Shown here: piece after piece, positions 1 to 61,335 of the stretch
Position numbering within the stretch: position 1 is the first letter of the stretch
How the letters are laid out: each line of letters opens with the position of its first letter
Source of the DNA: Gemmatimonadota bacterium
GTDB taxonomy: Bacteria > Gemmatimonadota > Gemmatimonadetes > Gemmatimonadales > GWC2-71-9
Reading direction: 5' to 3'
DNA: 64,000 nt
Assembly: GCA_039586895.1 (NCBI GenBank)
Contig: JBDHJM010000007.1
Location: 11,263-75,262 of the forward strand
Position numbers and translations under genes: made by a program
Notes under the pieces: generated by a model
Told to the model about the DNA's origin: nothing
The model's database searches: none
Seen by the model: the letters and a program-made list of their open reading frames with translations, nothing else

Positions 1-1296
1 GACACCGCGCTCCACGGCCTCCTTGGCCAGGGCCGCCGCCGCGGCGTATCCGATGCGGGGGGCCAGGGCGGTGACGATGGCAGGGCTCAGCTCCAGCCAG
101 CGGGCGGTCTGCTCCTCGTCGGGCTCGATCCCGGCGACGCAGCGCTCGGCCAGGACCCTGCTCGCGCTGGTGAGTATCTCCGTGGCGAAGAACAGGTTCT
201 GGGCGATCACGGGCATCATCACGTTGAGCTCGAGCTGACCCGCCTCCGCCGCGGCGGCCACCGTCGCGTCGTTACCCATGACCTGGTAGCAGACCATGTT
301 CACCATCTCGGCGATCACCGGGTTGACCTTCCCGGGCATGATGCTCGAGCCTGGCTGCACCGCCGGCAGGCGGATCTCGGCCAGTCCGGTGCGGGGACCC
401 GACGCCAGCAGCCGGAGGTCGCTGGCGATCTTGCTCAGGTCCACAGCGTAAGCGCGCAGCGCGCCGCTGAACGCCACCTGATCGCCCATGGACTGCATCA
501 GCTGCACCCGGTCCTGCCCCTCACGCAGCTCCAGGCCGCTCACCACCGCGAGCTGCTGCACGATGAGCGCCGGGTACTCAGGCTCCACGTTGAGCCCGGT
601 GCCCACTGCCGACCCGCCGATGCCGAGCTCGCGCAGCGCGGCGGCGGCGGCCGCAACGCGCGCGCGGTGGCGCTCCACCGTGTGGCCGTACGCGGTGAAC
701 TCCTGGCCCAGCCGGATGGGAGTCGCGTCCTGCAGATGGGTGCGGCCCGCCTTCACAAGCCCGTCGAAGGCACTGCCGCGCTCGAGCAGCGCCTCGGCCA
801 GCAGGGCCAGCGCCTCGTCCAGCGCCGGCAGCAGCGCGAGTGCTCCCAGCCTGATGGCCGTGGGGATGGTGTCGTTGGTGCTCTGCGCCATGTTCACGTG
901 GTCGTTGGGATGAACCGGCGCGTACTCTCCGCGCTTCCCGCCGAGCAGCTCATTGGCGCGGTTCGCGAGCACCTCGTTGACGTTCATGTTGTGGCTGGTG
1001 CCAGCTCCCGCTTGGTAGGGGTCCACCACGAACTGGTCGCGGTGCTGCCCCGCGAGGACCTCGTCGGCGGCGGCCACGATCGCGTCGGCCAGCTCGGCGT
1101 CGAGCCGTCCGGTCTCCCGGTGCACCAGTGCCGCGGAGCGCTTGATCCAGACCATCGCGTCCACGAACACGGGCAGCGGCATGAGACCCGAGATTGGGAA
1201 GTTGTGCCGCGCACGCTCCGTCTGAATGCCCCACAGCGCCCACGCCGGCACCGGCAGCTCGCCCAGTGGATCCTGCTCCAAACGAGTCTCGTTCAC
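1..1296 (-). CDS. aspA: aspartate ammonia-lyase (class II fumarase/aspartase family); C-terminus cut by window edge
   Basis: Reverse-strand translation from GTG at 1296 reads VNETRLEQDPLGE...QSTNDTIPTA...GRTHLQDATPIRLGQEF...GSSIMPGKVNPVIAEM (lyase-1 signature). QSTND and KVNPV favour aspartase over fumarase. It is absent from the ORF track because no stop lies in the window. Confidence 0.85.
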   Translation of the reverse strand, partial: MNETRLEQDPLGELPVPAWALWGIQTERARHNFPISGLMPLPVFVDAMVWIKRSAALVHRETGRLDAELADAIVAAADEVLAGQHRDQFVVDPYQAGAGTSHNMNVNEVLANRANELLGGKRGEYAPVHPNDHVNMAQSTNDTIPTAIRLGALALLPALDEALALLAEALLERGSAFDGLVKAGRTHLQDATPIRLGQEFTAYGHTVERHRARVAAAAAALRELGIGGSAVGTGLNVEPEYPALIVQQLAVVSGLELREGQDRVQLMQSMGDQVAFSGALRAYAVDLSKIASDLRLLASGPRTGLAEIRLPAVQPGSSIMPGKVNPVIAEMVNMVCYQVMGNDATVAAAAEAGQLELNVMMPVIAQNLFFATEILTSASRVLAERCVAGIEPDEEQTARWLELSPAIVTALAPRIGYAAAAALAKEAVERGV

Positions 1297-1397
1297 GTGC
1301 TCACCGCCTTCGGTCAATCCGGCGTCGGTATCGAGCCAGGAATCCGTCACGGCCGGATCGCATCAAGGGAAACACGCCGCGGTACCGAGTCGTGCCT

Positions 1398-1958
1398 TCA
1401 CCGCGTCACCTCCACCCGCAGCGCGTCGTTGAAGCGATTGAAGTAAGCGAACAAGCCGGCCACCAGCGTGATCTCAACGATCTCCCCTTCGTCCCAGTGA
1501 GCCGCCAGCTCGCCGTACGCCTCCTCGCTCACCGCGTGCCCGCTCTGGTTCACCAGCTCTGCGTGGCGCAGGGCGGCGAGCCATCCCGGCTCCATGCCGA
1601 CGAGGGATCCCGCGACATCGGAAGCCTCCTCGGGACTCTCCGCGCGCACCGCGGCGATCCACTCCTCGCGTGCTCCCAGCCGCCTCGCCAAGGCGGTGTG
1701 CGAAGCCAGTCAGTAGCGGCACCGGTTGATGGACGACACCCGCACCGAGATCAGCTCCTTGAGCAGGGGCGGTACCTCGCCCTCGGTCATCACGGTGCCG
1801 AAGTGCGCTATGAGCGTGCTGAGGTGCTTGGGCCGCACGGCCACCGTGCGGAACATGTTCGGGATGTTGCCGCGCTCGCGCAGGAACTTGTCGAAGATGC
1901 CGCGGGTCTCGGGTGTCACCTCGTCGGGCGTGCGCGGACGGATGCGGGGCTCGGTCAT
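1398..1958 (-). CDS. AhpD/carboxymuconolactone-decarboxylase-family protein with in-frame TGA (codon 83, 1710..1712), predicted selenocysteine
   Basis: ORF-track fragments 1710..1958 and 1398..1691 share one frame (561 nt = 187 codons). The junction reads INRCRY-[TGA]-LASHTAL, which is CxxCxxxH with TGA in place of the second Cys. Confidence 0.7.
1680..1696 (-). other. candidate SECIS-like hairpin downstream of UGA 1712..1710
   Basis: The mRNA sense reads CCGCC-UUGGCGA-GGCGG and begins 13 nt after the UGA. Flanking GCU/AGC could extend the stem. Judged by eye only. Confidence 0.3.
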
Positions 1959-1970
1959 GACAGTTCGGCC

Positions 1971-2195
1971 TCAGTCGGAGCAGTCGCCGAGGGGATACAC
2001 GAATCCGCAGTTGCGGCACGGGTTCTTGCAGCCGGACGCGCGCAGGGTGACCTCGAATCCACACCGGATGCAGAGATGAAGCGCGCCTGAATGTGTGGCG
2101 CCGCGAAGGCGGGGGTCCCCCTGAGCGAACGTTGGCCACTGCACAGTTCGTGAGGGGGGATCCCCCGCCACGCGGCGCCACATCCCGTCAGTCAA
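1971..2195 (-). CDS. small Cys-rich (zinc-ribbon-like) hypothetical protein
   Basis: The C-terminal half LCIRCGFEVTLRASGCKNPCRNCGFVYPLGDCSD has CxxC...CxxxCxxC spacing and strong GC3 bias. The TTG start overlaps the MBL stop, and an alternative ATG lies 4 codons in. The N-terminal half is weaker. Confidence 0.35.
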   Translation of the reverse strand: MTDGMWRRVAGDPPSRTVQWPTFAQGDPRLRGATHSGALHLCIRCGFEVTLRASGCKNPCRNCGFVYPLGDCSD

Positions 2196-2850
2196 GAGGA
2201 ATGGCTCCCGTAACGAACGGGTTCATGCGGCGCTCCGCGCCAATCGTGGTCTCAGGCCCGTGCCCTGAATAGACCACGGTCTCGTCCGGCAGCGTCATGA
2301 GCTGATCGCGGATGCTGGCCAGCAGAGTGGCCCCGTTGCCGCCGGGCAAATCCACGCGGCCCACCGATCCGGCGAACACCGCGTCACCCACGATGGCCAC
2401 GCCGTGTCCCACGAAGGCCACGCTGCCGGGGCTGTGCCCTGGCACGTGGCGCACCTCGAAGGAGAGCCCGCCCACGGTCATCACGTCACCGTGCGCCAGC
2501 TCGTGCTCGGGGGGCGGGGGCTGCTTGGCCCGCACGCCGAGCCAGGCGCCCTGCTCCTCGACTCCGTCGTACAGTGGCCGGTCGGCGGGGTGCAGGTGCA
2601 CCGGCACGCCGGTCCGCTCCACGACTTCACTCAATCCCAGGATGTGGTCCAGGTGGGCGTGCGTGAGCCACACGGCGCGTGGCGTCAGCCCCTCTGCTTC
2701 GAGGCGCCGCAAGAAGAGGTCGGCCTCCTCACCCGGATCGATGATGACGGCGTCGCCGGCTTCGCGGTCGACCAGGAGAAAGCAGTTCTCCTGGAACACG
2801 CTGTTGGTGAGGCAGATGACCTCAGGGCGAGGCAAGCGCCTCCTGCTCAT
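2188..2850 (-). CDS. MBL-fold metallo-hydrolase (glyoxalase II-like)
   Basis: Motifs seen are THAHLDH, VPGHSPGS and a C-terminal GHG. I chose the internal ATG (MSRRRLPRPEVICL...) rather than the long ORF-track start at 2967. Confidence 0.8.
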   Translation of the reverse strand: MSRRRLPRPEVICLTNSVFQENCFLLVDREAGDAVIIDPGEEADLFLRRLEAEGLTPRAVWLTHAHLDHILGLSEVVERTGVPVHLHPADRPLYDGVEEQGAWLGVRAKQPPPPEHELAHGDVMTVGGLSFEVRHVPGHSPGSVAFVGHGVAIVGDAVFAGSVGRVDLPGGNGATLLASIRDQLMTLPDETVVYSGHGPETTIGAERRMNPFVTGAIPLD

Positions 2851-3904
2851 TGGCCTCCCGGGCCTGGTCGCGCCGCTCTGTGAGGTGCTTCTCGACCGCG
2901 ATTGCCGCGGTGGTCGCATCGCCCACGGCCGTCGTGATCTGCCTGACGAGCTGGACCCTGAGGTCACCGGCGGCGAACAGCCCCTCTATGGACGTCATCA
3001 TATTGCTGTCCGTGACGATGTACCCGCCGGAGTCGTGCTCGAAGTGACCCTTGATGAGGCCGGAGTTGGGCGTGAAGCCTATGAAGATGAACACGCCGCC
3101 CACGTCGAGCTGTGAAGTCTCGCCGGTCTGCGTGTCCTTCAGCTCGAGGTGCGTGACGCCCCTGGGCGCGCCGTGGACCTCCTCCACGACCTTGTTCCAC
3201 ACGACCTCGATCTTGGGGTTGTTGAGCGCCCGCTTCTGCACGATGGGCTTGGCGCGCAGCTCGTCGCGCCGGTGCACGATGTACACCTTCTCCGCGTAGC
3301 GCGTCAGGTAGTCGGCCTCCTCGACGGCCGCGTCGCCGCCGCCCACCACGGCCAAAACCTCGCCCTTGAAGAATGCGCCGTCGCACACGGCACAGTACGA
3401 CACCCCGCGTCCCGCGTACTCCTGCTCTCCGGGCACCCCCAGCTTGCGCGGGGTGCCTCCCGCGGTGAGGATCACGGCCGGGGCGCGGTACGTGACCCCC
3501 TTCTCGGTGACCACGTCGAACTCGCCGTCCTCGCGCTTCGCTATGGACTGCACGGTGTCGGTCACCAGCTCGGCACCGAACTTGAGCGCGTGGTCGGTCA
3601 TCTTCTGTGCCAGCTCGGGTCCCTTGATGCTCTCGAACCCCGGGTAGTCCTCGACGAGCTCCGTATTCAGGATCTCGCCCCCGGGAGCTCCCCGCTCGAG
3701 CAGCAGCGTCTTGAGCATTCCCCGTCCCGAGTACATCGCTGCGCAAAGGCCTGCGGGGCCGCCGCCCACGATGATCACGTCATATGTCTGAACTCGGCTC
3801 TGCTGTTTCTCAGCCACTGGTTCCTCTGCGTGCCGTTGTCCTTCATCCTGGGCCGGGACCCTGCCCGGCCACCCGTTCGCCTCCAGCCCGAGAACGAAGC
3901 GCAC
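2822..3904 (-). CDS. trxB: thioredoxin-disulfide reductase
   Basis: Contains YDVIIVGGGPAGL (FAD site), the redox-active CAVCDG, and VVGGGDAAVEEA (NADPH site). The true start may be the GTG at 3817 (VAEKQQSRVQTYDV) preceded by GAGGAA. Confidence 0.9.
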   Translation of the reverse strand: MRFVLGLEANGWPGRVPAQDEGQRHAEEPVAEKQQSRVQTYDVIIVGGGPAGLCAAMYSGRGMLKTLLLERGAPGGEILNTELVEDYPGFESIKGPELAQKMTDHALKFGAELVTDTVQSIAKREDGEFDVVTEKGVTYRAPAVILTAGGTPRKLGVPGEQEYAGRGVSYCAVCDGAFFKGEVLAVVGGGDAAVEEADYLTRYAEKVYIVHRRDELRAKPIVQKRALNNPKIEVVWNKVVEEVHGAPRGVTHLELKDTQTGETSQLDVGGVFIFIGFTPNSGLIKGHFEHDSGGYIVTDSNMMTSIEGLFAAGDLRVQLVRQITTAVGDATTAAIAVEKHLTERRDQAREANEQEALASP

Positions 3905-3946
3905 GGCGCCGATGTTCCCGCCGCACGCCGCCCACCCGTAAAGTAC

Positions 3947-4387
3947 CTAACGCAGTGTCGCCAGGCTCTGGTCGGGGCCCGGCGCCCCGCGCGCCGCGAA
4001 CTCTACGGTGCCGTCCTGCTTCACCAGCACCACGGTGCGCTGGATCTTCTTCCCGTCGGGCTTGAGCGCACCGAAAGCCGCGATCGCGTTCCGGGTGGGG
4101 TCGCTCAGCAGCGGGAACGGCAGCTTTAGTTTGTTGGCGTACTTGAGGTGGCTGTCCACCCCGGCGAAGTTCACTCCGAAGGGCCGGACGTTGGCTGCTC
4201 TGTAGGTCTCGATCTCATCGCGCACGGCGGAGAGTTGCTTGTTTCAGCCAGGCGTGTTGTTGCCGGGATAGAAGATGAGCAGCACGTGGGACTCATCGAG
4301 CACGTCACGCAGCCTGTAGCGAGTCCCGTCGGACGCCTCCAGCGCGAAGTCCGGTGCGGCGGTGCCGACCGCGATCAAGTCATCCAT
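3947..4387 (-). CDS. peroxiredoxin (AhpC/TSA/Bcp type) with in-frame TGA (codon 48, 4244..4246), predicted selenocysteine
   Basis: Fragments 4244..4447 and 3947..4225 share one frame (441 nt = 147 codons). The junction reads LLIFYPGNNTPG-[TGA]-NKQLSAVRDEIETY, against the Prx consensus FYPxxxTPGC. The ATG at 4387 overlaps the PHP stop by 1 nt, with GGAGG upstream. Confidence 0.7.
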
Positions 4388-5238
4388 CACGTTGCCTCCG
4401 GTAGTTCGGTTCTCTGTAGGTGCAGCGTCCGGAGCCGCTCGAGCCACTCCTCCGGAATGGTGATCGACCCCAGAGCGGCGCGCTCCGGGGGAGTGGCGCA
4501 GTCACCGTGCCAGTCGGTGCCCCCGGTCGGCAGCAGGTCCAGCTCGGCGGCCAGCCGCTCCACCCGCTGCACGGTAGCCTCGTCATGCGCAGGGTGCATG
4601 ACCTCCACTCCGTCCAGTCCGGCGCCGCGCAGCTGCCGTAGGATGCCCCGGGTCGCGCGATCTCTCAAGTGTGCAGCCGAGGTCACGCCGCCCACCTCAC
4701 GCACCAGCGCGGTCACGTCGGCGACGGGCGGGAGCTCCTTGGGGACGAATGCGGGACGGCGCCACCCCAGGTACCTGCGGAACGCAGTGTCCACGTCGGG
4801 CACCAGCCCGCCGTCCACCAGAGCGCGGGCCACGTGGGGCCGGCCGATCGCCTCGCCGCTGGACGCCTGCAGCACCTGCTCCACCGTTATCACTGCCCCC
4901 GCCTTGTTGAGCCGCTCCACGATGCGCTCGGCGCGGCGGCGGCGCTTGAGCCGCTGGTCCAGCAGGAAGGCGTTGAGCCGCTCGTCGTCGGCGGGAAGGA
5001 AGTAGGCCAGCAGATGCATCTCCCCCCAAGGGGCCGCGACCGAGAACTCGCAGCCGGTGACGACGTCCACTCCCACGGCGCGCCCCTCCTGCTCGGCCGC
5101 GGGCAATCCAGCCAGCGAATCGTGGTCCGTGAGTCCGATCGTGGTGAGGCCGGCGGCCGCCGCACGCCGCACGACCTCCTCGGGCGCGCAGTCCCCATCG
5201 GACGCGGTCGAGTGCATGTGCAGATCGACCGAGCCCAC
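4387..5238 (-). CDS. PHP-domain phosphoesterase (TrpH/YciV-like)
   Basis: The N-terminus VDLHMHSTASDGD and the following GLTDHDS are typical PHP motifs. GTG start. Confidence 0.85.
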   Translation of the reverse strand: MGSVDLHMHSTASDGDCAPEEVVRRAAAAGLTTIGLTDHDSLAGLPAAEQEGRAVGVDVVTGCEFSVAAPWGEMHLLAYFLPADDERLNAFLLDQRLKRRRRAERIVERLNKAGAVITVEQVLQASSGEAIGRPHVARALVDGGLVPDVDTAFRRYLGWRRPAFVPKELPPVADVTALVREVGGVTSAAHLRDRATRGILRQLRGAGLDGVEVMHPAHDEATVQRVERLAAELDLLPTGGTDWHGDCATPPERAALGSITIPEEWLERLRTLHLQRTELPEAT

Positions 5239-5240
5239 GA

Positions 5241-5516
5241 CTATTTGGCCGTGCGACCGTAGCGCGTTTCGGGACTGGTTCGCTCCGCCTGTGAGTGATG
5301 GAACAGGTCGGAGAGCTGTCGGTCGGTGAGCTCGGTGAGCGCGGCATCCCAGCGGCGCGCGCCCAGCGGCGAGAACCGCGATACGCGCCGCACCCTGCCC
5401 GGGCCGGTGCCCTTTTCGAACACCAGCCCGAACTCATCCCTGTGGTAGCTGGTCACGCGGCCCGAGGGGTAGACGCGCCAGTGCTCGCCGTCGATCTCAA
5501 TCGTGCGGCGCGCCAC
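5241..5516 (-). CDS. hypothetical protein (91 aa)
   Basis: It fills the gap between E2 and the PHP gene on the same strand with a GTG start and GC3 bias. No motif recognised. Confidence 0.45.
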   Translation of the reverse strand: MARRTIEIDGEHWRVYPSGRVTSYHRDEFGLVFEKGTGPGRVRRVSRFSPLGARRWDAALTELTDRQLSDLFHHSQAERTSPETRYGRTAK

Positions 5517-17665: not shown

Positions 17666-17792
17666 CCGTTTCGGCACGCCTTCGGACAGCGCCGGCCGGG
17701 AACCCAGGACACACTGGATTCGTTACCTGTGTGACGGCGTAAGTCATTAACTAGCAGCGACATGCAGGATTCGGGCCAGCGTCTCCCAAGCG

Positions 17793-29982: not shown

Positions 29983-30060
29983 GTGAGCACGCCCGCGTCA
30001 GGGCGCCGTCTCGGGTGCGGCCGCCGGCCAGCGCCTTGTGCTGGCCCGCCCGCCATGTCT

Positions 30061-30087
30061 AATTACGTTCCCCATAAGGAATTACGT
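30061..30087 (+). promoter_or_regulatory. direct repeat AATTACGT-N11-AATTACGT in an AT-rich patch upstream of sod
   Basis: The copies are at 30061..30068 and 30080..30087, 40-65 nt upstream of the sod ATG. This is the only AT-rich patch in that intergenic region. Confidence 0.25.
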
Positions 30088-30127
30088 GTACCCAAGGCAA
30101 TCAAGCAGCGAGAAGGAGCAGCACATC

Positions 30128-30736
<609 letters not shown>

Positions 30737-59387: not shown

Positions 59388-60158
59388 ATGCCCACACCGC
59401 CGCCGTGCACGAGACTCGGCCGACAATGCCGGGAGCTCGCAGTAACACTGCGCATTGCAGAGTCGGATGACAGCCGCACACTGCAGGATGCGGCCGCCAC
59501 CTGGCTGCTGGGACACACCGAGCGCATCACCATGGGCAAGCCCTACTGGAGCGACGATGAGTTCCTGGTGGACGCCACGCTGCATGTGCCGTGCAAGTAC
59601 CTGAAGGAGCAGGGCAAGTCGGGGCGTGCGCACTGTACCGCCCACGGCTTCAGGGGGCCGATGCCTTTGAGCAGCCAGCGTGTGGGTGAGCAGCGCGAGG
59701 AGCTCTTGCTGGACAACGGCACATACGTTCTGGTCTACAAGGGACGCCAGCGCGCCCTCGACCTCCCGCTCAAGAAGGCCGCGCGGCGAGCGCTGCCGGT
59801 AGTGCAGAACCACAACCCCTGCCTCGATGCTCCCTGCCGCACGGGGGACAACAAGCGCGGCGCGGCCTGCTGCAGGGACCTCACGCTCGAGCTCGACCTG
59901 CCGGAGCCGTCCACGCGCATGATGGCCCTGCTGCGCGCCCGCAAGTCTCCATACCTGTGCAAGGTCACCCGCGAAGGCCCGAACGCGGTCGAGGTCGAGG
60001 TGATCTCCGCCTGTGGATACCTGGGCGACGACGGAATCAGCTGCGTGCTGCACGACCGGGTGCTGCCCAACGGGCGCCTCGCGAAACCTTCAATCTGCAT
60101 GGAGTGGCCGGACCTCGACGATGACGACGAGGGCCATCCCGGCTGTGCACTCACCTGA
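59388..60158 (+). CDS. cysteine-cluster protein (partly YkgJ/UPF0153-like)
   Basis: Thirteen Cys residues including PCLDAPC...AACCRD and ACGYLGDDGISCVLHD...PSICMEWP. It starts 4 nt after the upstream gene. Confidence 0.5.
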   Translation: MPTPPPCTRLGRQCRELAVTLRIAESDDSRTLQDAAATWLLGHTERITMGKPYWSDDEFLVDATLHVPCKYLKEQGKSGRAHCTAHGFRGPMPLSSQRVGEQREELLLDNGTYVLVYKGRQRALDLPLKKAARRALPVVQNHNPCLDAPCRTGDNKRGAACCRDLTLELDLPEPSTRMMALLRARKSPYLCKVTREGPNAVEVEVISACGYLGDDGISCVLHDRVLPNGRLAKPSICMEWPDLDDDDEGHPGCALT

Positions 60159-60192
60159 AGCCCGTTACAGCGACAACCGAAGGACGGACCAC

Positions 60193-61335
60193 ATGATGGT
60201 GCCCGAGATCACTCCCGACGAACTGGCCCGCGCGCTGGAGGCGGGCGACCCGGTGCAGGTGCTCGACGTCCGGGCGCCGCAGCGCCTGGCCGCCGGCCGC
60301 ATCGAGCTGGCGCCCGAGGACAGGTTTCACAACATCGTGGGGTCCCGGATCGTCCAGATGCGCTCCGCCGACGAGACCGGCCTGGACGCGGCCGCACCCG
60401 TGGCGGTCGTGTGCGGGCACGGCAACGACAGCAAGGTCGTGGCCACCCTGCTGAACCGGTTCGGCTTCGAGGCCGCGTCGCTGCACGGCGGCATGGCTGG
60501 ATGGAACCTGCTCACGCTGCCGCGCGAGCTGCCGGCGACGGATTCCCTGGACCGGCTGGTCCAGTTCGACCGCATGGGCAAGGCCGCACTGGGCTATCTC
60601 CTGGTGAGCGACGGTGAGGCCATGGTCGTAGACGCGCCGCGGGAGTTCTCGACTTACCTCGCCGCGGCCGACGAGGCTGACGCCCAGATAGTGGCCGTGG
60701 CCGACACTCACTGTCACGCCGACTACATCAGTGGCGGCCCGCACCTGGCGCGTGCGCTGGGCGCTCCCTACTACCTGCACGAGGCAGACAGCAGCTACCC
60801 CTACGACGGTACGCCCGGCCGGCTCCGGTTCGAGCCGCTAGAGGACGGGACGTCCATCCGCGTGGGACGCGCCACGGTGCGCGTACAACGCACGCCGGGC
60901 CACACCGAGGGCAGCGTCACGTTCCTGGTGGACGAGCAGGCGGCCTTCACCGGCGACTTCATATTCGTGGCCTCGATCGGGCGGCCCGACCTGGCCGGCA
61001 AGTCGGCCGAGTGGACGGTGCAGCTGTGGGACAGCCTGGCCGCGGCGAAGTCCGACTGGCCGGCGGACGTGGCGATCTACCCGGCGCATTACGCGCTGGA
61101 GGAAGAGCGCAACGCGGACCGCTCGGTAGGGCGGCCGCTGGGAGAGCTGCTGCGCACCAACGAGCCGCTCGCGATCGGCGACCGTGGCACGTTCGTTCAG
61201 TGGGTGGAGGCCCGCACCGGCACGTTCCCGGAACAGTACCGCGTAATCAAGGCCGTGAACGTGGGCCTCACTCCGGTGACGGAGCTGCAGGCCGAAGAGC
61301 TGGAGATGGGAAAAAACGAGTGTGCGCTGGGGTAG
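60193..61335 (+). CDS. rhodanese-persulfide dioxygenase (MBL-fold) fusion protein
   Basis: The N-terminal rhodanese has the loop VCGHGNDS. The MBL part has DTHCHADYISGG and TPGHTEGS. I chose the ATG at 60193. Confidence 0.8.
   Translation: MMVPEITPDELARALEAGDPVQVLDVRAPQRLAAGRIELAPEDRFHNIVGSRIVQMRSADETGLDAAAPVAVVCGHGNDSKVVATLLNRFGFEAASLHGGMAGWNLLTLPRELPATDSLDRLVQFDRMGKAALGYLLVSDGEAMVVDAPREFSTYLAAADEADAQIVAVADTHCHADYISGGPHLARALGAPYYLHEADSSYPYDGTPGRLRFEPLEDGTSIRVGRATVRVQRTPGHTEGSVTFLVDEQAAFTGDFIFVASIGRPDLAGKSAEWTVQLWDSLAAAKSDWPADVAIYPAHYALEEERNADRSVGRPLGELLRTNEPLAIGDRGTFVQWVEARTGTFPEQYRVIKAVNVGLTPVTELQAEELEMGKNECALG

What the first reader, a model, noticed from the sequence alone, without database searches (positions are those of the whole stretch)
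1398..5238. One operon combining thioredoxin reductase with two UGA-containing redox enzymes
On the minus strand the order is PHP phosphoesterase, Prx(UGA), TrxR, MBL hydrolase, small Cys-rich ORF, AhpD-like(UGA). The genes have 1-29 nt overlaps or short gaps. Two independent in-frame TGAs within 2.6 kb, both at redox-active Cys columns and both flanking trxB, argue for a dedicated Sec-based thiol peroxidase system. They argue against two pseudogenes. In that system TrxR would be the likely electron donor. Standard gene callers would split or drop both genes.
Basis: inference. Interest (0 to 1): 0.7.

Follow-up and report, generated by a model that had tools for sequence, protein, structure and literature searches.

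The report
Two selenoprotein genes flanking thioredoxin reductase
Two genes beside the thioredoxin reductase gene of a Gemmatimonadota bacterium very probably use their internal TGA "stop" codon to insert selenocysteine at the active site; both belong to known selenoprotein families that gene callers routinely cut in two, and the evidence that they form one dedicated operon is weaker.

Summary
On the minus strand lie PHP phosphoesterase, peroxiredoxin (TGA at 4244-4246), TrxR, an MBL hydrolase, a small Cys-rich ORF and an AhpD-like gene (TGA at 1710-1712). Both TGAs sit at catalytic Cys columns (T-P-G-U and C-R-Y-U).

They are very probably real Sec codons:
- The Prx TGA is kept in 72 of 80 Gemmatimonadota species loci, and the AhpD TGA in 28 of the 33 loci that hold the gene.
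- There are no other in-frame stops, and dN/dS is equal on both sides of each TGA.
- Each TGA is followed by a SECIS-like hairpin. The AhpD hairpin has three compensatory pairs. The Prx hairpin is nucleotide-invariant.
- Both hairpins decay in every Cys-form orthologue.

Both families (Prx TxxU, AhpD-like CxxU) are long-known selenoproteins, so these are new members of known kinds.

"One dedicated operon" is only partly supported:
- The genes sit in a phylum-wide syntenic block running from 2-oxoacid dehydrogenase to fumarase.
- Other clades carry 0.4-2.7 kb of unrelated genes between Prx and trxB.
- AhpD is often absent, inverted or Cys-type.
- A conserved ECF-type promoter motif (GGAAC-N18-GTT) lies in the 129-nt Prx-trxB gap, which suggests two transcription units.

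The Sec machinery (selA, selB, selC, selD) could not be checked.

The parts
4387..5238 (-). PHP-family phosphoesterase. Its stop codon overlaps the Prx ATG by 1 nt.
   Evidence: Pfam PHP 54 bits. NCBIfam nucleoside-bisphosphate phosphatase / RNase RNM-like, below cut-offs. It lies directly upstream of Prx in 78 of the 80 loci.
3947..4387 (-). Peroxiredoxin of the BCP/PrxQ type, 146 aa, motif T-P-G-U. It has no Cys residue at all, so Sec is its only redox residue.
   Evidence: TGA is kept in 72 of 80 species loci, with TGC in the other 8.
4244..4246 (-). Sec-UGA codon of Prx, at the peroxidatic Cys column.
   Evidence: Aligned with Cys in full-length homologues and with TGC in 8 loci.
4214..4234 (-). 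Putative bSECIS core of Prx: CUC-UC-CGC[CGUGC]GCG-AU-GAG, nt 13-33 after the U of UGA.
   Evidence: Nt 13-29 are invariant in 73 sequences. Synonymous entropy is zero at codons L52-R56, against 1.3-1.5 bits at flanking invariant codons. Cys forms differ at 2-6 of the 21 nt. MFE is -6.5 kcal/mol in the window and -14.1 for the phylum consensus.
3893..3918 (-). ECF-sigma-type promoter motif GGAAC-N18-GTT in the Prx-trxB gap.
   Evidence: It is the only conserved block of the intergenic region apart from the RBS and start codon. It is found up to 170 nt upstream of trxB in 26 loci, out of 58 matches in 1.03 Mb. It matches the GGAAC-N17-18-cGTT consensus of sigmaH/sigmaE promoters (PMC10012870).
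2822..3817 (-). Low-Mr thioredoxin-disulfide reductase (GGGPAG, CAVC, HRRDELR), 331 aa counted from the conserved GTG.
   Evidence: TIGR01292 381.8 bits, above the 343.45 cut-off. The start is supported by a conserved GAGG RBS plus GTG.
2188..2850 (-). MBL-fold hydrolase, glyoxalase-II (YcbL/GloC)-like. It overlaps the end of trxB by 14-29 nt.
   Evidence: Pfam Lactamase_B 113 bits. PDB 2ZWR 1e-46 and 2XF4 7e-38.
1971..2183 (-). Small Cys-rich protein. The conserved C-terminal domain is C-x2-C-x11-GCKNPCxNCGFxYPLGDCSD (1974-2072) and looks like a zinc ribbon. The N-terminus and start codon are uncertain.
   Evidence: The C-terminal 33 aa are 70-85% identical in about 55 loci. Homologues are 42-91 aa, and JGI labels some 'Zn-ribbon DUF1610'. 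There is no Pfam or NCBIfam hit.
1398..1958 (-). AhpD-like (carboxymuconolactone decarboxylase family) protein, 186 aa, active-site motif E-x11-C-R-Y-U-x3-H.
   Evidence: PF02627 62 bits; TIGR00778 57 bits, above the 27.8 cut-off; TIGR01926 70 bits, below the 81.8 cut-off. TGA in 28 species loci; Cys in 5 loci plus 2 further genomes.
1710..1712 (-). Sec-UGA codon of the AhpD-like gene, at the second Cys of CxxC.
1672..1706 (-). bSECIS of the AhpD-like gene: a 7-bp upper stem (1680-1696) closing a GGC loop 20 nt after the UGA, plus a lower stem.
   Evidence: The upper helix is 99.5% paired in 29 sequences. Three pairs show compensatory double changes, in 12, 14 and 5 sequences. Slid controls give 44-57% paired. 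MFE is -18.2 kcal/mol. Only 1-4 of the 7 pairs remain in the 7 Cys-form genes.
5241..5516 (-). Conserved 91-aa ORF of unknown function, between E2 (1 nt upstream) and PHP (2 nt downstream).
   Evidence: Found by tblastn in 76 of the 80 loci. No Pfam hit is on record.
1..1350 (-). Class II fumarase (FumC), N-terminal part. It starts 47 nt after the AhpD stop and runs off the window.

Best explanation
The window comes from a Gemmatimonadota genome. It carries two genuine selenoprotein genes of known families, one on each side of trxB.

(1) The first is a Cys-free BCP/PrxQ-type peroxiredoxin whose peroxidatic residue is Sec (TxxU). During translation the UGA at 4244-4246 would be recoded by SelB and Sec-tRNA bound to a short hairpin 9 nt downstream, which is invariant across the phylum. 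The enzyme would reduce peroxides through a selenenic acid. Having no resolving Cys, it must be recycled by an external dithiol, most simply thioredoxin reduced by TrxR and NADPH.

(2) The second is an AhpD-like CxxU oxidoreductase. Its UGA at 1710-1712 is followed by a canonical bSECIS: a 7-bp stem with a GGC loop 20 nt from the UGA.

The genes are not one dedicated operon. They sit in a conserved chromosomal block and most likely form two transcription units. The first is E1beta-E2-orf91-PHP-Prx, where the genes from E2 to Prx are 1-2 nt apart or overlap. The second is a stress-inducible unit, trxB-MBL-Zn-ribbon-AhpD(-fumC), driven by an ECF-sigma-type promoter (GGAAC-N18-GTT) in the Prx-trxB gap.

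Shown here: the TGA positions, their conservation, the purifying selection, the RNA constraints, the synteny and the promoter-like motif. Inferred: actual Sec insertion, the electron path, and the transcription units.
For: TGA state:
- TGAs sit at catalytic columns and the family models match across them.
- The Prx TGA occurs in 72 of 80 species loci and the AhpD TGA in 28 of the 33 loci with the gene.
- No other in-frame stop occurs in any orthologue.
- dN/dS upstream and downstream of the TGA is 0.32 and 0.30 for Prx, and 0.18 and 0.21 for AhpD.

RNA constraints:
- The AhpD hairpin is 99.5% paired, with three compensatory pairs and an invariant GGC loop. It meets every published bSECIS constraint.
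- Prx has 17 consecutive invariant nucleotides and zero synonymous variation at five 4- to 6-fold degenerate codons in 72 species.
- Both RNA signals are lost in all Cys-form orthologues.
- The Cys/Cys loci form one clade, where both genes switched together.

Known families: both are listed selenoprotein families, Prx TxxU and AhpD-like CxxU (PMC2398784, PMC13188914).

Operon structure:
- TrxR passes the TIGR01292 cut-off.
- Synteny and the variable insertions are shown.
- The promoter motif is conserved upstream of trxB in 26 loci and matches the sigmaH/sigmaE consensus that also drives trxB1 in Corynebacterium (PMC10012870).
Against: - No selA, selB, selD or tRNA-Sec gene lies in the 64-kb window or in 1.03 Mb of related loci. 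The rest of the genome could not be searched, so the Sec-decoding trait of this lineage is inferred only.
- In this window the Prx hairpin folds at only -6.5 kcal/mol, weaker than the -7.5 limit of the bSECIS model. It has no covariation because it never varies.
- The Sec-to-Cys co-switch of both genes is a single evolutionary event. Mixed states exist, with Prx-U next to AhpD-C.
- The promoter is a consensus match only. No ECF sigma gene was found in the window, and the simple scan found no terminator between Prx and trxB. Read-through co-transcription of all the genes therefore remains possible.
Confidence: 0.8

Rival explanations
1. All six genes form one operon that encodes a dedicated selenium-based thiol peroxidase system. 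The co-encoded TrxR is the specific electron donor for both the Sec-Prx and the Sec-AhpD-like protein.
For: - The genes share a strand and are close together in this window. No terminator-like site was found between them.
- The Prx ... TrxR-MBL-small ORF order is kept across the phylum.
- In the window's own clade both selenoprotein genes flank trxB within 2.6 kb.
- BCP-type peroxiredoxins are classically thioredoxin-dependent (established knowledge; NCBIfam family names).
Against: - A conserved ECF-type promoter motif sits between Prx and trxB.
- In most other clades 0.4-2.7 kb of unrelated genes separate them.
- AhpD is absent from this position in about half of the loci covered through to FumC, and lies on the opposite strand in L062, L067 and L080.
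- The block extends to 2-oxoacid dehydrogenase and fumarase genes, which is typical of a conserved backbone rather than a functional module.
- No thioredoxin gene was seen among the ORFs scanned, and TrxR does not normally reduce Prx directly.
Confidence: 0.2
2. A mycobacterial-type relay. The AhpD-like CxxU protein is the direct reductant of the 1-Sec peroxiredoxin. It is itself reduced by the lipoyl domain of the E2 acyltransferase encoded just upstream, with NADH and Lpd as the ultimate source, as in M. tuberculosis AhpC-AhpD-DlaT-Lpd.
For: - An E2 gene with a biotin/lipoyl domain lies three genes upstream of Prx, and the genes from E2 to Prx are 1-2 nt apart or overlap.
- The Prx has no resolving Cys and needs an external reductant.
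- The AhpD fold carries the E-x11-CxxC/U-x3-H relay motif.
Against: - The protein is not an AhpD orthologue: TIGR00777 gives 22 bits against a 192-bit cut-off. Its nearest solved relatives are uncharacterised 'peroxidase-related' proteins.
- Prx is kept in many genomes whose block lacks AhpD.
- The E2-Prx linkage is equally explained by backbone synteny.
Confidence: 0.08
3. The TGAs are true stops or errors: pseudogenes, sequencing or assembly artefacts, or genes deliberately split into two polypeptides.
For: Gene callers annotate them as split. No Sec machinery was seen in the window.
Against: - The same TGA sits at the same column in 72 and 28 independently assembled species, with no other stops and equal purifying selection on both sides.
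- The catalytic residue would be missing from both fragments.
- The RNA hairpins co-occur strictly with the TGA.
Confidence: 0.01
4. The UGA is read through, but by something other than Sec. An example is near-cognate or suppressor insertion of Cys or Trp, helped by the downstream hairpin.
For: The Sec machinery was not observed, so Sec itself is not demonstrated.
Against: - TGA is the ordinary stop of most neighbouring genes, so there is no general reassignment.
- The hairpins fit the bSECIS geometry: G in the loop, and 17 and 20 nt from the UGA.
- Both families are recurrent selenoproteins in other phyla.
Confidence: 0.03

Closest known systems
Prx selenoprotein family (PF00578, motif TxxU), e.g. 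PrxU of Eubacterium acidaminophilum. Listed in the GOS selenoproteome (253 sequences) and in the 2026 review.
   Same: AhpC-TSA fold. Sec replaces the peroxidatic Cys in the T-x-x-U motif. The catalytic Arg is conserved. The bSECIS lies directly after the UGA.
   Different: It scores far below the NCBIfam PrxU model (33.6 bits against 270) and is closest to BCP/PrxQ proteins (3DRN, 2CX3, DOT5). It has no Cys at all, so it is a '1-Sec' enzyme. Its SECIS is very short and invariant across a phylum. It is a Gemmatimonadota lineage that public annotation records as 92-aa fragments.
AhpD-like selenoproteins (CxxU; COG2128 / TIGR01926 / PF02627), found in the Sargasso Sea and GOS metagenomes.
   Same: CMD/AhpD core domain. 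Sec sits at the second position of CxxC within E-x11-CxxU-x3-H. Cys-form homologues are common. The bSECIS is canonical.
   Different: It falls just under the TIGR01926 cut-off (70.1 against 81.8 bits). It does not match the curated (seleno)protein subfamilies NF053654 and NF041238. Its function is unknown, and its nearest solved structures are uncharacterised.
[quoted passage not shown]
   Same: A peroxiredoxin-type and an AhpD-type selenoprotein gene lie close together on one strand.
   Different: Here the Prx is the TxxU type, not the UxxC 'Prx-like 1' type. The two genes are separated by trxB, an MBL hydrolase and a Zn-ribbon gene. The linkage varies within the phylum.
SigR/SigH/SigE (ECF) thiol-stress regulons of Actinobacteria, which drive trxB/trxC from GGAA[T/C]-N17-19-GTT promoters.
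   Same: The same -35 and -10 motif and spacing lie upstream of a thioredoxin reductase gene.
   Different: The phylum is different. No cognate sigma or anti-sigma gene was identified. The promoter is inferred from sequence conservation only.
M. tuberculosis AhpC-AhpD-DlaT-Lpd peroxidase relay.
   Same: A peroxiredoxin, an AhpD-fold CxxC-type protein and a lipoyl-E2 gene lie in one neighbourhood.
   Different: The AhpD-like protein is not an AhpD orthologue. The Prx is BCP-type rather than AhpC-type. The linkage is not conserved.

Membership tests
Bacterial selenoprotein gene (Sec-UGA recoding) | In-frame UGA aligned with a conserved, catalytic Cys of homologues (a Cys/Sec pair). | tested here: met
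   Prx U48 aligns with Cys in full-length homologues and in 8 TGC loci. AhpD U83 aligns with Cys in 5 loci, 2 further genomes and many database homologues.
Bacterial selenoprotein gene (Sec-UGA recoding) | TGA-containing orthologues in other organisms, with coding constraint on both sides. | tested here: met
   72 species loci for Prx and 28 for AhpD. dN/dS is 0.32 and 0.30, and 0.18 and 0.21. No other in-frame stops.
Bacterial selenoprotein gene (Sec-UGA recoding) | bSECIS after the UGA: a 3-9 nt loop with G in its first two positions, a 4-16 bp upper stem, 16-37 nt from the UGA, MFE at or below -7.5 (PMC13188914). Tested on the AhpD-like gene. | tested here: met
   GGC loop, 7-bp stem, 20 nt spacing, -18.2 kcal/mol. 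Three covarying pairs.
Bacterial selenoprotein gene (Sec-UGA recoding) | The same bSECIS constraints, tested on the Prx gene. | tested here: inconclusive
   The loop is CGUGC or CGU, with G at position 2, 17 nt from the UGA. The stem is 3+3 bp around an internal loop, or 8 bp with two bulges. MFE is -6.5 in the window, which fails the limit, but -14.1 for the phylum consensus. The element is invariant, so covariation cannot be tested. Support comes from zero synonymous variation and from decay in the Cys forms.
Bacterial selenoprotein gene (Sec-UGA recoding) | The genome encodes selA, selB, selC (tRNA-Sec) and selD. | not testable with these tools
   None lies in the window or in 83 related loci. 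One ARAGORN 'tRNA-SeC' call in L060 was not confirmed by Rfam. Whole genomes could not be searched.
Peroxiredoxin (AhpC-TSA) catalytic core | P-x3-T-x2-C(U) motif and the conserved catalytic Arg. | tested here: met
   P41-x3-T45-x2-U48. R117 is invariant in alignment A1. PF00578 105 bits against a cut-off of 26.
BCP/PrxQ thioredoxin-dependent thiol peroxidase (NF006960, NF053650) | Score above the equivalog cut-off, and a resolving Cys five residues after the peroxidatic Cys in the atypical 2-Cys members. | tested here: not met
   64 bits against 140, and 63 against 260. Position +5 is Ser (codon TCC) in all 72 Sec forms, while 2 of the 8 Cys forms have Cys there. The best PDB matches are nevertheless BCPs. 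It works like a 1-Cys BCP but is not an equivalog.
AhpD-like protein family (PF02627 / TIGR00778 core; TIGR01926 'peroxidase-related enzyme') | AhpD core domain with E-x11-CxxC-x3-H, and score above the cut-offs. | tested here: met
   PF02627 62 against 23, and TIGR00778 57.3 against 27.8, are both met. The motif E68-x11-C80-R-Y-U83-x3-H87 is present. TIGR01926 at 70.1 against 81.8 is narrowly not met.
Mycobacterial AhpD (TIGR00777) | Score above the family cut-off. | tested here: not met
   22.2 bits against 191.95.
Low-Mr thioredoxin-disulfide reductase (TIGR01292) | Equivalog score, redox CxxC, and FAD and NADPH motifs. | tested here: met
   381.8 bits against 343.45. CAVC, GGGPAG, GGGDAA and HRRDELR are all present.
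Single operon | Co-directional genes with short gaps, no internal promoter or terminator, and linkage conserved as a unit. | tested here: inconclusive
   Gaps are tight within E2-orf91-PHP-Prx and within trxB-MBL-small ORF-AhpD. The Prx-trxB gap is 129 nt and holds a conserved promoter-like motif, and it varies from 53 to 2704 nt among species. No terminator was detected. Transcripts are not testable here.
ECF sigma (sigmaH/sigmaE/sigmaR-type) promoter | -35 GGAA[C/T] and -10 (c)GTT at a spacing of 17-19 nt, with a cognate ECF sigma in the genome. | tested here: inconclusive
   The sequence and spacing match exactly, and the motif is conserved upstream of trxB in 26 loci. No ECF sigma gene was found in the window. 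Activity was not tested.

The most novel reading that the evidence does not exclude
Across Gemmatimonadota, a Cys-free '1-Sec' PrxQ and a CxxU AhpD-like protein could work together with an ECF-sigma-driven trxB / glyoxalase-II-like / Zn-ribbon unit as one selenium-dependent thiol-stress module. The conserved Cys-rich mini-protein or the AhpD-like protein might serve as the missing redox shuttle. The Prx would be recoded by an unusually small, phylum-invariant 21-nt SECIS that falls below the standard bSECIS energy threshold.
Probability: 0.15. Interest if true: 0.55.

Novelty: new member of a known kind. Interest (0 to 1): 0.35.

Why it matters
- It corrects a systematic annotation error. Across Gemmatimonadota, a phylum abundant in soils and sediments, this peroxiredoxin and this AhpD-like gene are recorded as truncated fragments or hypothetical proteins.
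- It implies that much of the phylum decodes Sec, and that one Gemmatimonadaceae clade replaced both Sec residues with Cys.
- It gives a clean comparative data set: 72 Sec forms against 8 Cys forms, and 28 against 7. The set shows how SECIS constraints freeze synonymous sites and then decay once Sec is lost.
- It offers a testable link between an ECF-type stress promoter and trxB outside the Actinobacteria.
- It does not reveal a new kind of system.

Tried and rejected
- Single-sequence folding of the regions after the TGAs was uninformative in this GC-rich DNA: z = +1.4 for Prx and -0.65 for AhpD. Only the comparative analysis resolved the hairpins.
- A search for the Sec machinery found nothing. 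ARAGORN and Rfam were run on the window. Pfam was run on about 30 further window ORFs.
- An ARAGORN 'tRNA-SeC' call in L060 (13192-13268) was rejected, because Rfam gives no tRNA hit there.
- Literature searches for Sec use in Gemmatimonadetes/Gemmatimonadota gave nothing specific.
- The 'perfect' Sec/Cys co-variation of the two genes (30 U/U, 5 C/C, no mixed states) was downgraded. The C/C loci form one clade, so this is one event. Mixed Prx-U/AhpD-C genomes turned up in a protein search.
- The sigma-70 promoter and intrinsic terminator scan found nothing useful.
- The outer stem of the Prx hairpin (GCCA/UGGC) is present or absent rather than covarying, so it was not used as evidence.

Full report
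**Observation.**
The minus strand of window 1-5516 encodes the following genes in order:
- a conserved 91-aa ORF (5241-5516);
- a PHP phosphoesterase (4387-5238);
- a peroxiredoxin (3947-4387);
- thioredoxin reductase (2822-3817);
- an MBL-fold hydrolase (2188-2850);
- a small Cys-rich ORF (1971-2183);
- an AhpD/CMD-like gene (1398-1958);
- the start of a class II fumarase (1-1350).

The Prx frame has one internal TGA at 4244-4246, and the AhpD-like frame has one at 1710-1712. With Cys substituted at those positions, the translations match Pfam AhpC-TSA (105 bits, residues 7-130) and CMD (62 bits) across the TGA. TrxR passes the TIGR01292 equivalog cut-off, 381.8 against 343.45.

The Prx TGA lies in FYPGNNTPG-U-NKQ, which is the peroxidatic Cys column of full-length homologues. 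The AhpD TGA lies in E-x11-C-R-Y-U-x3-H, at the second Cys of the AhpD core motif.

That gap is 129 nt to the conserved GTG start.

**Source and relatives.**
The window matches a Gemmatimonadota MAG, GCA_039587565.1, and a near-identical JGI contig. On that JGI contig the gene caller splits Prx into 47+92 aa and AhpD into 82+97 aa.

A protein search returned dozens of 91-95 aa C-terminal Prx fragments from Gemmatimonadota. Sources name them 'hypothetical protein' or 'redoxin domain-containing protein'. The same search returned 147-148 aa Cys-form homologues at 53-58% identity.

A scan of one genome per GTDB species returned 80 loci, all Gemmatimonadota.

**Are the TGAs Sec codons?**
- *Conservation.* In those 80 loci the Prx catalytic codon is TGA in 72 and TGC in 8. 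The AhpD-like gene was found in 33 of them, with TGA in 28 and TGC or TGT in 5.
- *Selection.* No orthologue has any other in-frame stop. Median pairwise dN/dS is the same upstream and downstream of the TGA: 0.32 and 0.30 for Prx, and 0.18 and 0.21 for AhpD. The downstream parts are therefore translated.
- *AhpD hairpin.* The 66 nt after the TGA hold a hairpin with a 7-bp upper stem and an invariant GGC loop 20 nt from the UGA. Over 29 sequences it is 99.5% paired. Three pairs switch between C-G and U-A by double changes, in 12, 14 and 5 sequences. Slid controls give 44-57% pairing. It meets every constraint of the published bSECIS model.
- *Prx hairpin.* Nucleotides 13-29 after the UGA are identical in all 73 sequences. 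Codons L52, S53, A54, V55 and R56 show zero synonymous variation in 72 species. Invariant P, G and T codons just upstream show 1.3-1.5 bits. The block folds as CUC-UC-CGC[CGUGC]GCG-AU-GAG, with a G-U in the loop 17 nt from the UGA. The only variable base, nt 30, is unpaired in both alternative folds.
- *Weakness of the Prx hairpin.* In this window the hairpin is weak, at -6.5 kcal/mol. Most species add a GCCA/UGGC outer stem, which gives -14.1.
- *Decay in Cys forms.* The 8 Cys-form Prx genes differ at 2-6 of the 21 core nucleotides. The 7 Cys-form AhpD genes keep only 1-4 of the 7 stem pairs, and most lose the GGC loop.
- *Phylogeny.* A tree of E1beta, TrxR and PHP places the five Cys/Cys loci in a single clade nested among Sec forms. 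Both genes therefore changed on one branch, as expected if that lineage lost Sec decoding. This counts as one event, not many. Two further Gemmatimonadales genomes carry Prx-TGA next to a Cys-form AhpD, so the two genes can also change independently.

Pseudogenes, sequencing errors and deliberate gene splitting are excluded.

The one missing element is the machinery. No selA, selB, selD or tRNA-Sec gene lies in the window or in the related loci. One ARAGORN tRNA-SeC call was not confirmed by Rfam. Whole genomes could not be searched.

**What the proteins are.**
- *Prx.* It belongs to the BCP/PrxQ branch. Its best solved relatives are 3DRN, 5ENU, DOT5 and 2CX3. It scores below all NCBIfam equivalog cut-offs. 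It has no Cys residue, and position +5, where atypical 2-Cys BCPs carry the resolving Cys, is Ser in every Sec form. It is therefore a '1-Sec' peroxidase that needs an external reductant.
- *AhpD-like protein.* It has the AhpD core domain (TIGR00778) and sits just under the TIGR01926 'peroxidase-related enzyme' cut-off. It is not a mycobacterial AhpD. Its nearest structures are uncharacterised structural-genomics proteins.
- *MBL protein.* It resembles the short glyoxalase-II proteins TTHA1623 (2ZWR) and YcbL/GloC (2XF4).
- *Small ORF.* It has a strongly conserved 33-aa C-terminal domain, C-x2-C-x11-GCKNPCxNCGFxYPLGDCSD. This is probably a zinc ribbon. It has no family assignment.

**Operon or neighbourhood?**
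The whole stretch E1beta-E2-orf91-PHP-Prx ... TrxR-MBL-small ORF-(AhpD)-FumC is syntenic across the phylum. Three observations argue against a single unit:
- *Variable gap.* The Prx-TrxR distance is 53-220 nt in most of the window's clade. It is 0.4-2.7 kb elsewhere, filled with SDR, AF_1314_C and DUF309 genes.
- *Variable AhpD.* About half of the loci that reach FumC have no AhpD gene at this position. Three have it on the opposite strand. In another clade it is coupled to an LPG_synthase_TM gene.
- *Internal promoter motif.* In the window's clade the only conserved parts of the Prx-TrxR spacer are a GAGG RBS with the GTG start and the motif GGGAAC-N18-GTT. That motif lies up to 170 nt upstream of trxB in 26 loci, against 58 plus-strand matches in 1.03 Mb overall. 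The window holds 3 matches against 0.63 expected. It equals the GGAAC-N17-18-cGTT consensus of ECF sigmaH/sigmaE promoters, which drive trxB1 in Corynebacterium (PMC10012870).

Prx follows PHP with a 1-nt overlap, PHP follows orf91 after 2 nt, and orf91 follows E2 after 1 nt. The most economical reading is therefore two units. The first is E1beta-E2-orf91-PHP-Prx. The second is an ECF-controlled trxB-MBL-Zn-ribbon-AhpD(-fumC). Read-through between them cannot be excluded, since no terminator was found.

**Mechanism.**
- *Shown:* the recoding signals and the catalytic motifs.
- *Inferred:* SelB and Sec-tRNA insert Sec at both UGAs. Prx-Se(-) reduces peroxide to give a selenenic acid, which is recycled by thioredoxin, TrxR and NADPH. 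The thioredoxin gene would lie elsewhere, because none was seen among the ORFs scanned in the window.
- *Open:* the AhpD-like CxxU protein is a thiol/selenol oxidoreductase of unknown substrate. An AhpC-AhpD-lipoyl-E2 type relay is a minority alternative.

**Comparison with the literature.**
Prx (PF00578, TxxU) and AhpD-like (CxxU) are established prokaryotic selenoprotein families. They were abundant in the GOS metagenome, with 253 Prx sequences and 299 plus 70 AhpD-like sequences (PMC2398784). Both are listed in a 2026 review, which also mentions neighbouring Prx-like/AhpD-like genes (PMC13188914).

No paper in the searched library reports Sec use in Gemmatimonadota.

**Verdict.**
These are new members of known families. 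The 'one dedicated operon with TrxR as donor' idea is only partly supported.

Noticed in passing
window 3893-3918 (-); also 17699-17724 (+) and 41547-41572 (-): There are three matches to the ECF-type promoter pattern GGAAC-N18-GTT in the window, against 0.63 expected. The first is the conserved one upstream of trxB. The third lies at the end of a molybdopterin oxidoreductase gene, upstream of TusA and an MBL-fold gene, and may mark a second member of the same regulon.
   Followed up: partly
window 1971-2183 (-); about 55 related loci: A small protein has a very conserved Cys-rich C-terminus, C-x2-C-x11-GCKNPCxNCGFxYPLGDCSD. It always follows the MBL gene after trxB and has no Pfam or NCBIfam family. 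It is absent from the Gemmatimonadaceae clade, both Cys-type and Sec-type members. Gene callers often miss it.
   Followed up: partly
window 5241-5516 (-): A 91-aa ORF with no family assignment is conserved across the phylum. It is wedged between the E2 acyltransferase gene (1-nt gap) and the PHP gene (2-nt gap).
   Followed up: no
L024, L027, L029, L033, L058, L066, L084-L087 (between Prx and trxB): Other clades insert one or two SDR genes, an AF_1314_C-domain gene with a GGGCYG dinucleotide-binding motif and a CPTHC motif, and a DUF309 gene between Prx and trxB.
   Followed up: partly
L084 9153-10543; L086 9126-10534: In one Gemmatimonadales clade the AhpD-like gene, here in its Cys form, overlaps by 4 nt the end of an LPG_synthase_TM membrane-protein gene. 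This differs from the Zn-ribbon coupling in the window.
   Followed up: no
L002 14416-14856; L084 12518-16741: Downstream of fumC lies an Rrf2-family regulator. In L084 this is followed by rhodanese, a PALP enzyme, a JAB peptidase and a ThiS-ThiF-rhodanese fusion. That looks like a CysO-type sulfur-carrier cysteine pathway.
   Followed up: no
Prx codon 53 (window 4229-4231): The position five residues after the catalytic residue is Ser (codon TCC) in all 72 Sec forms, but Cys in 2 of the 8 Cys forms and in P0013. The Cys forms can therefore carry a resolving Cys that the Sec forms never use.
   Followed up: partly
L060 13192-13268: ARAGORN calls a 77-nt tRNA-SeC (anticodon TCA) here, but Rfam finds no tRNA. 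It is probably a false positive.
   Followed up: yes
L001 (NCBI contig JBDHIG010000049.1): The NCBI copy of this region is a 29-kb contig that ends inside or just after the PHP gene, immediately before the Sec-Prx gene. The window itself continues past that point.
   Followed up: no
window 39863-46042 (-) and 60004-61332 (+): There is a sulfur-metabolism-like cluster: a molybdopterin oxidoreductase, a 4Fe-4S/NrfD fusion, TusA and an MBL-fold protein. A rhodanese-MBL fusion lies elsewhere in the window. An Fe/Mn superoxide dismutase is at 29987-30733 (+).
   Followed up: no
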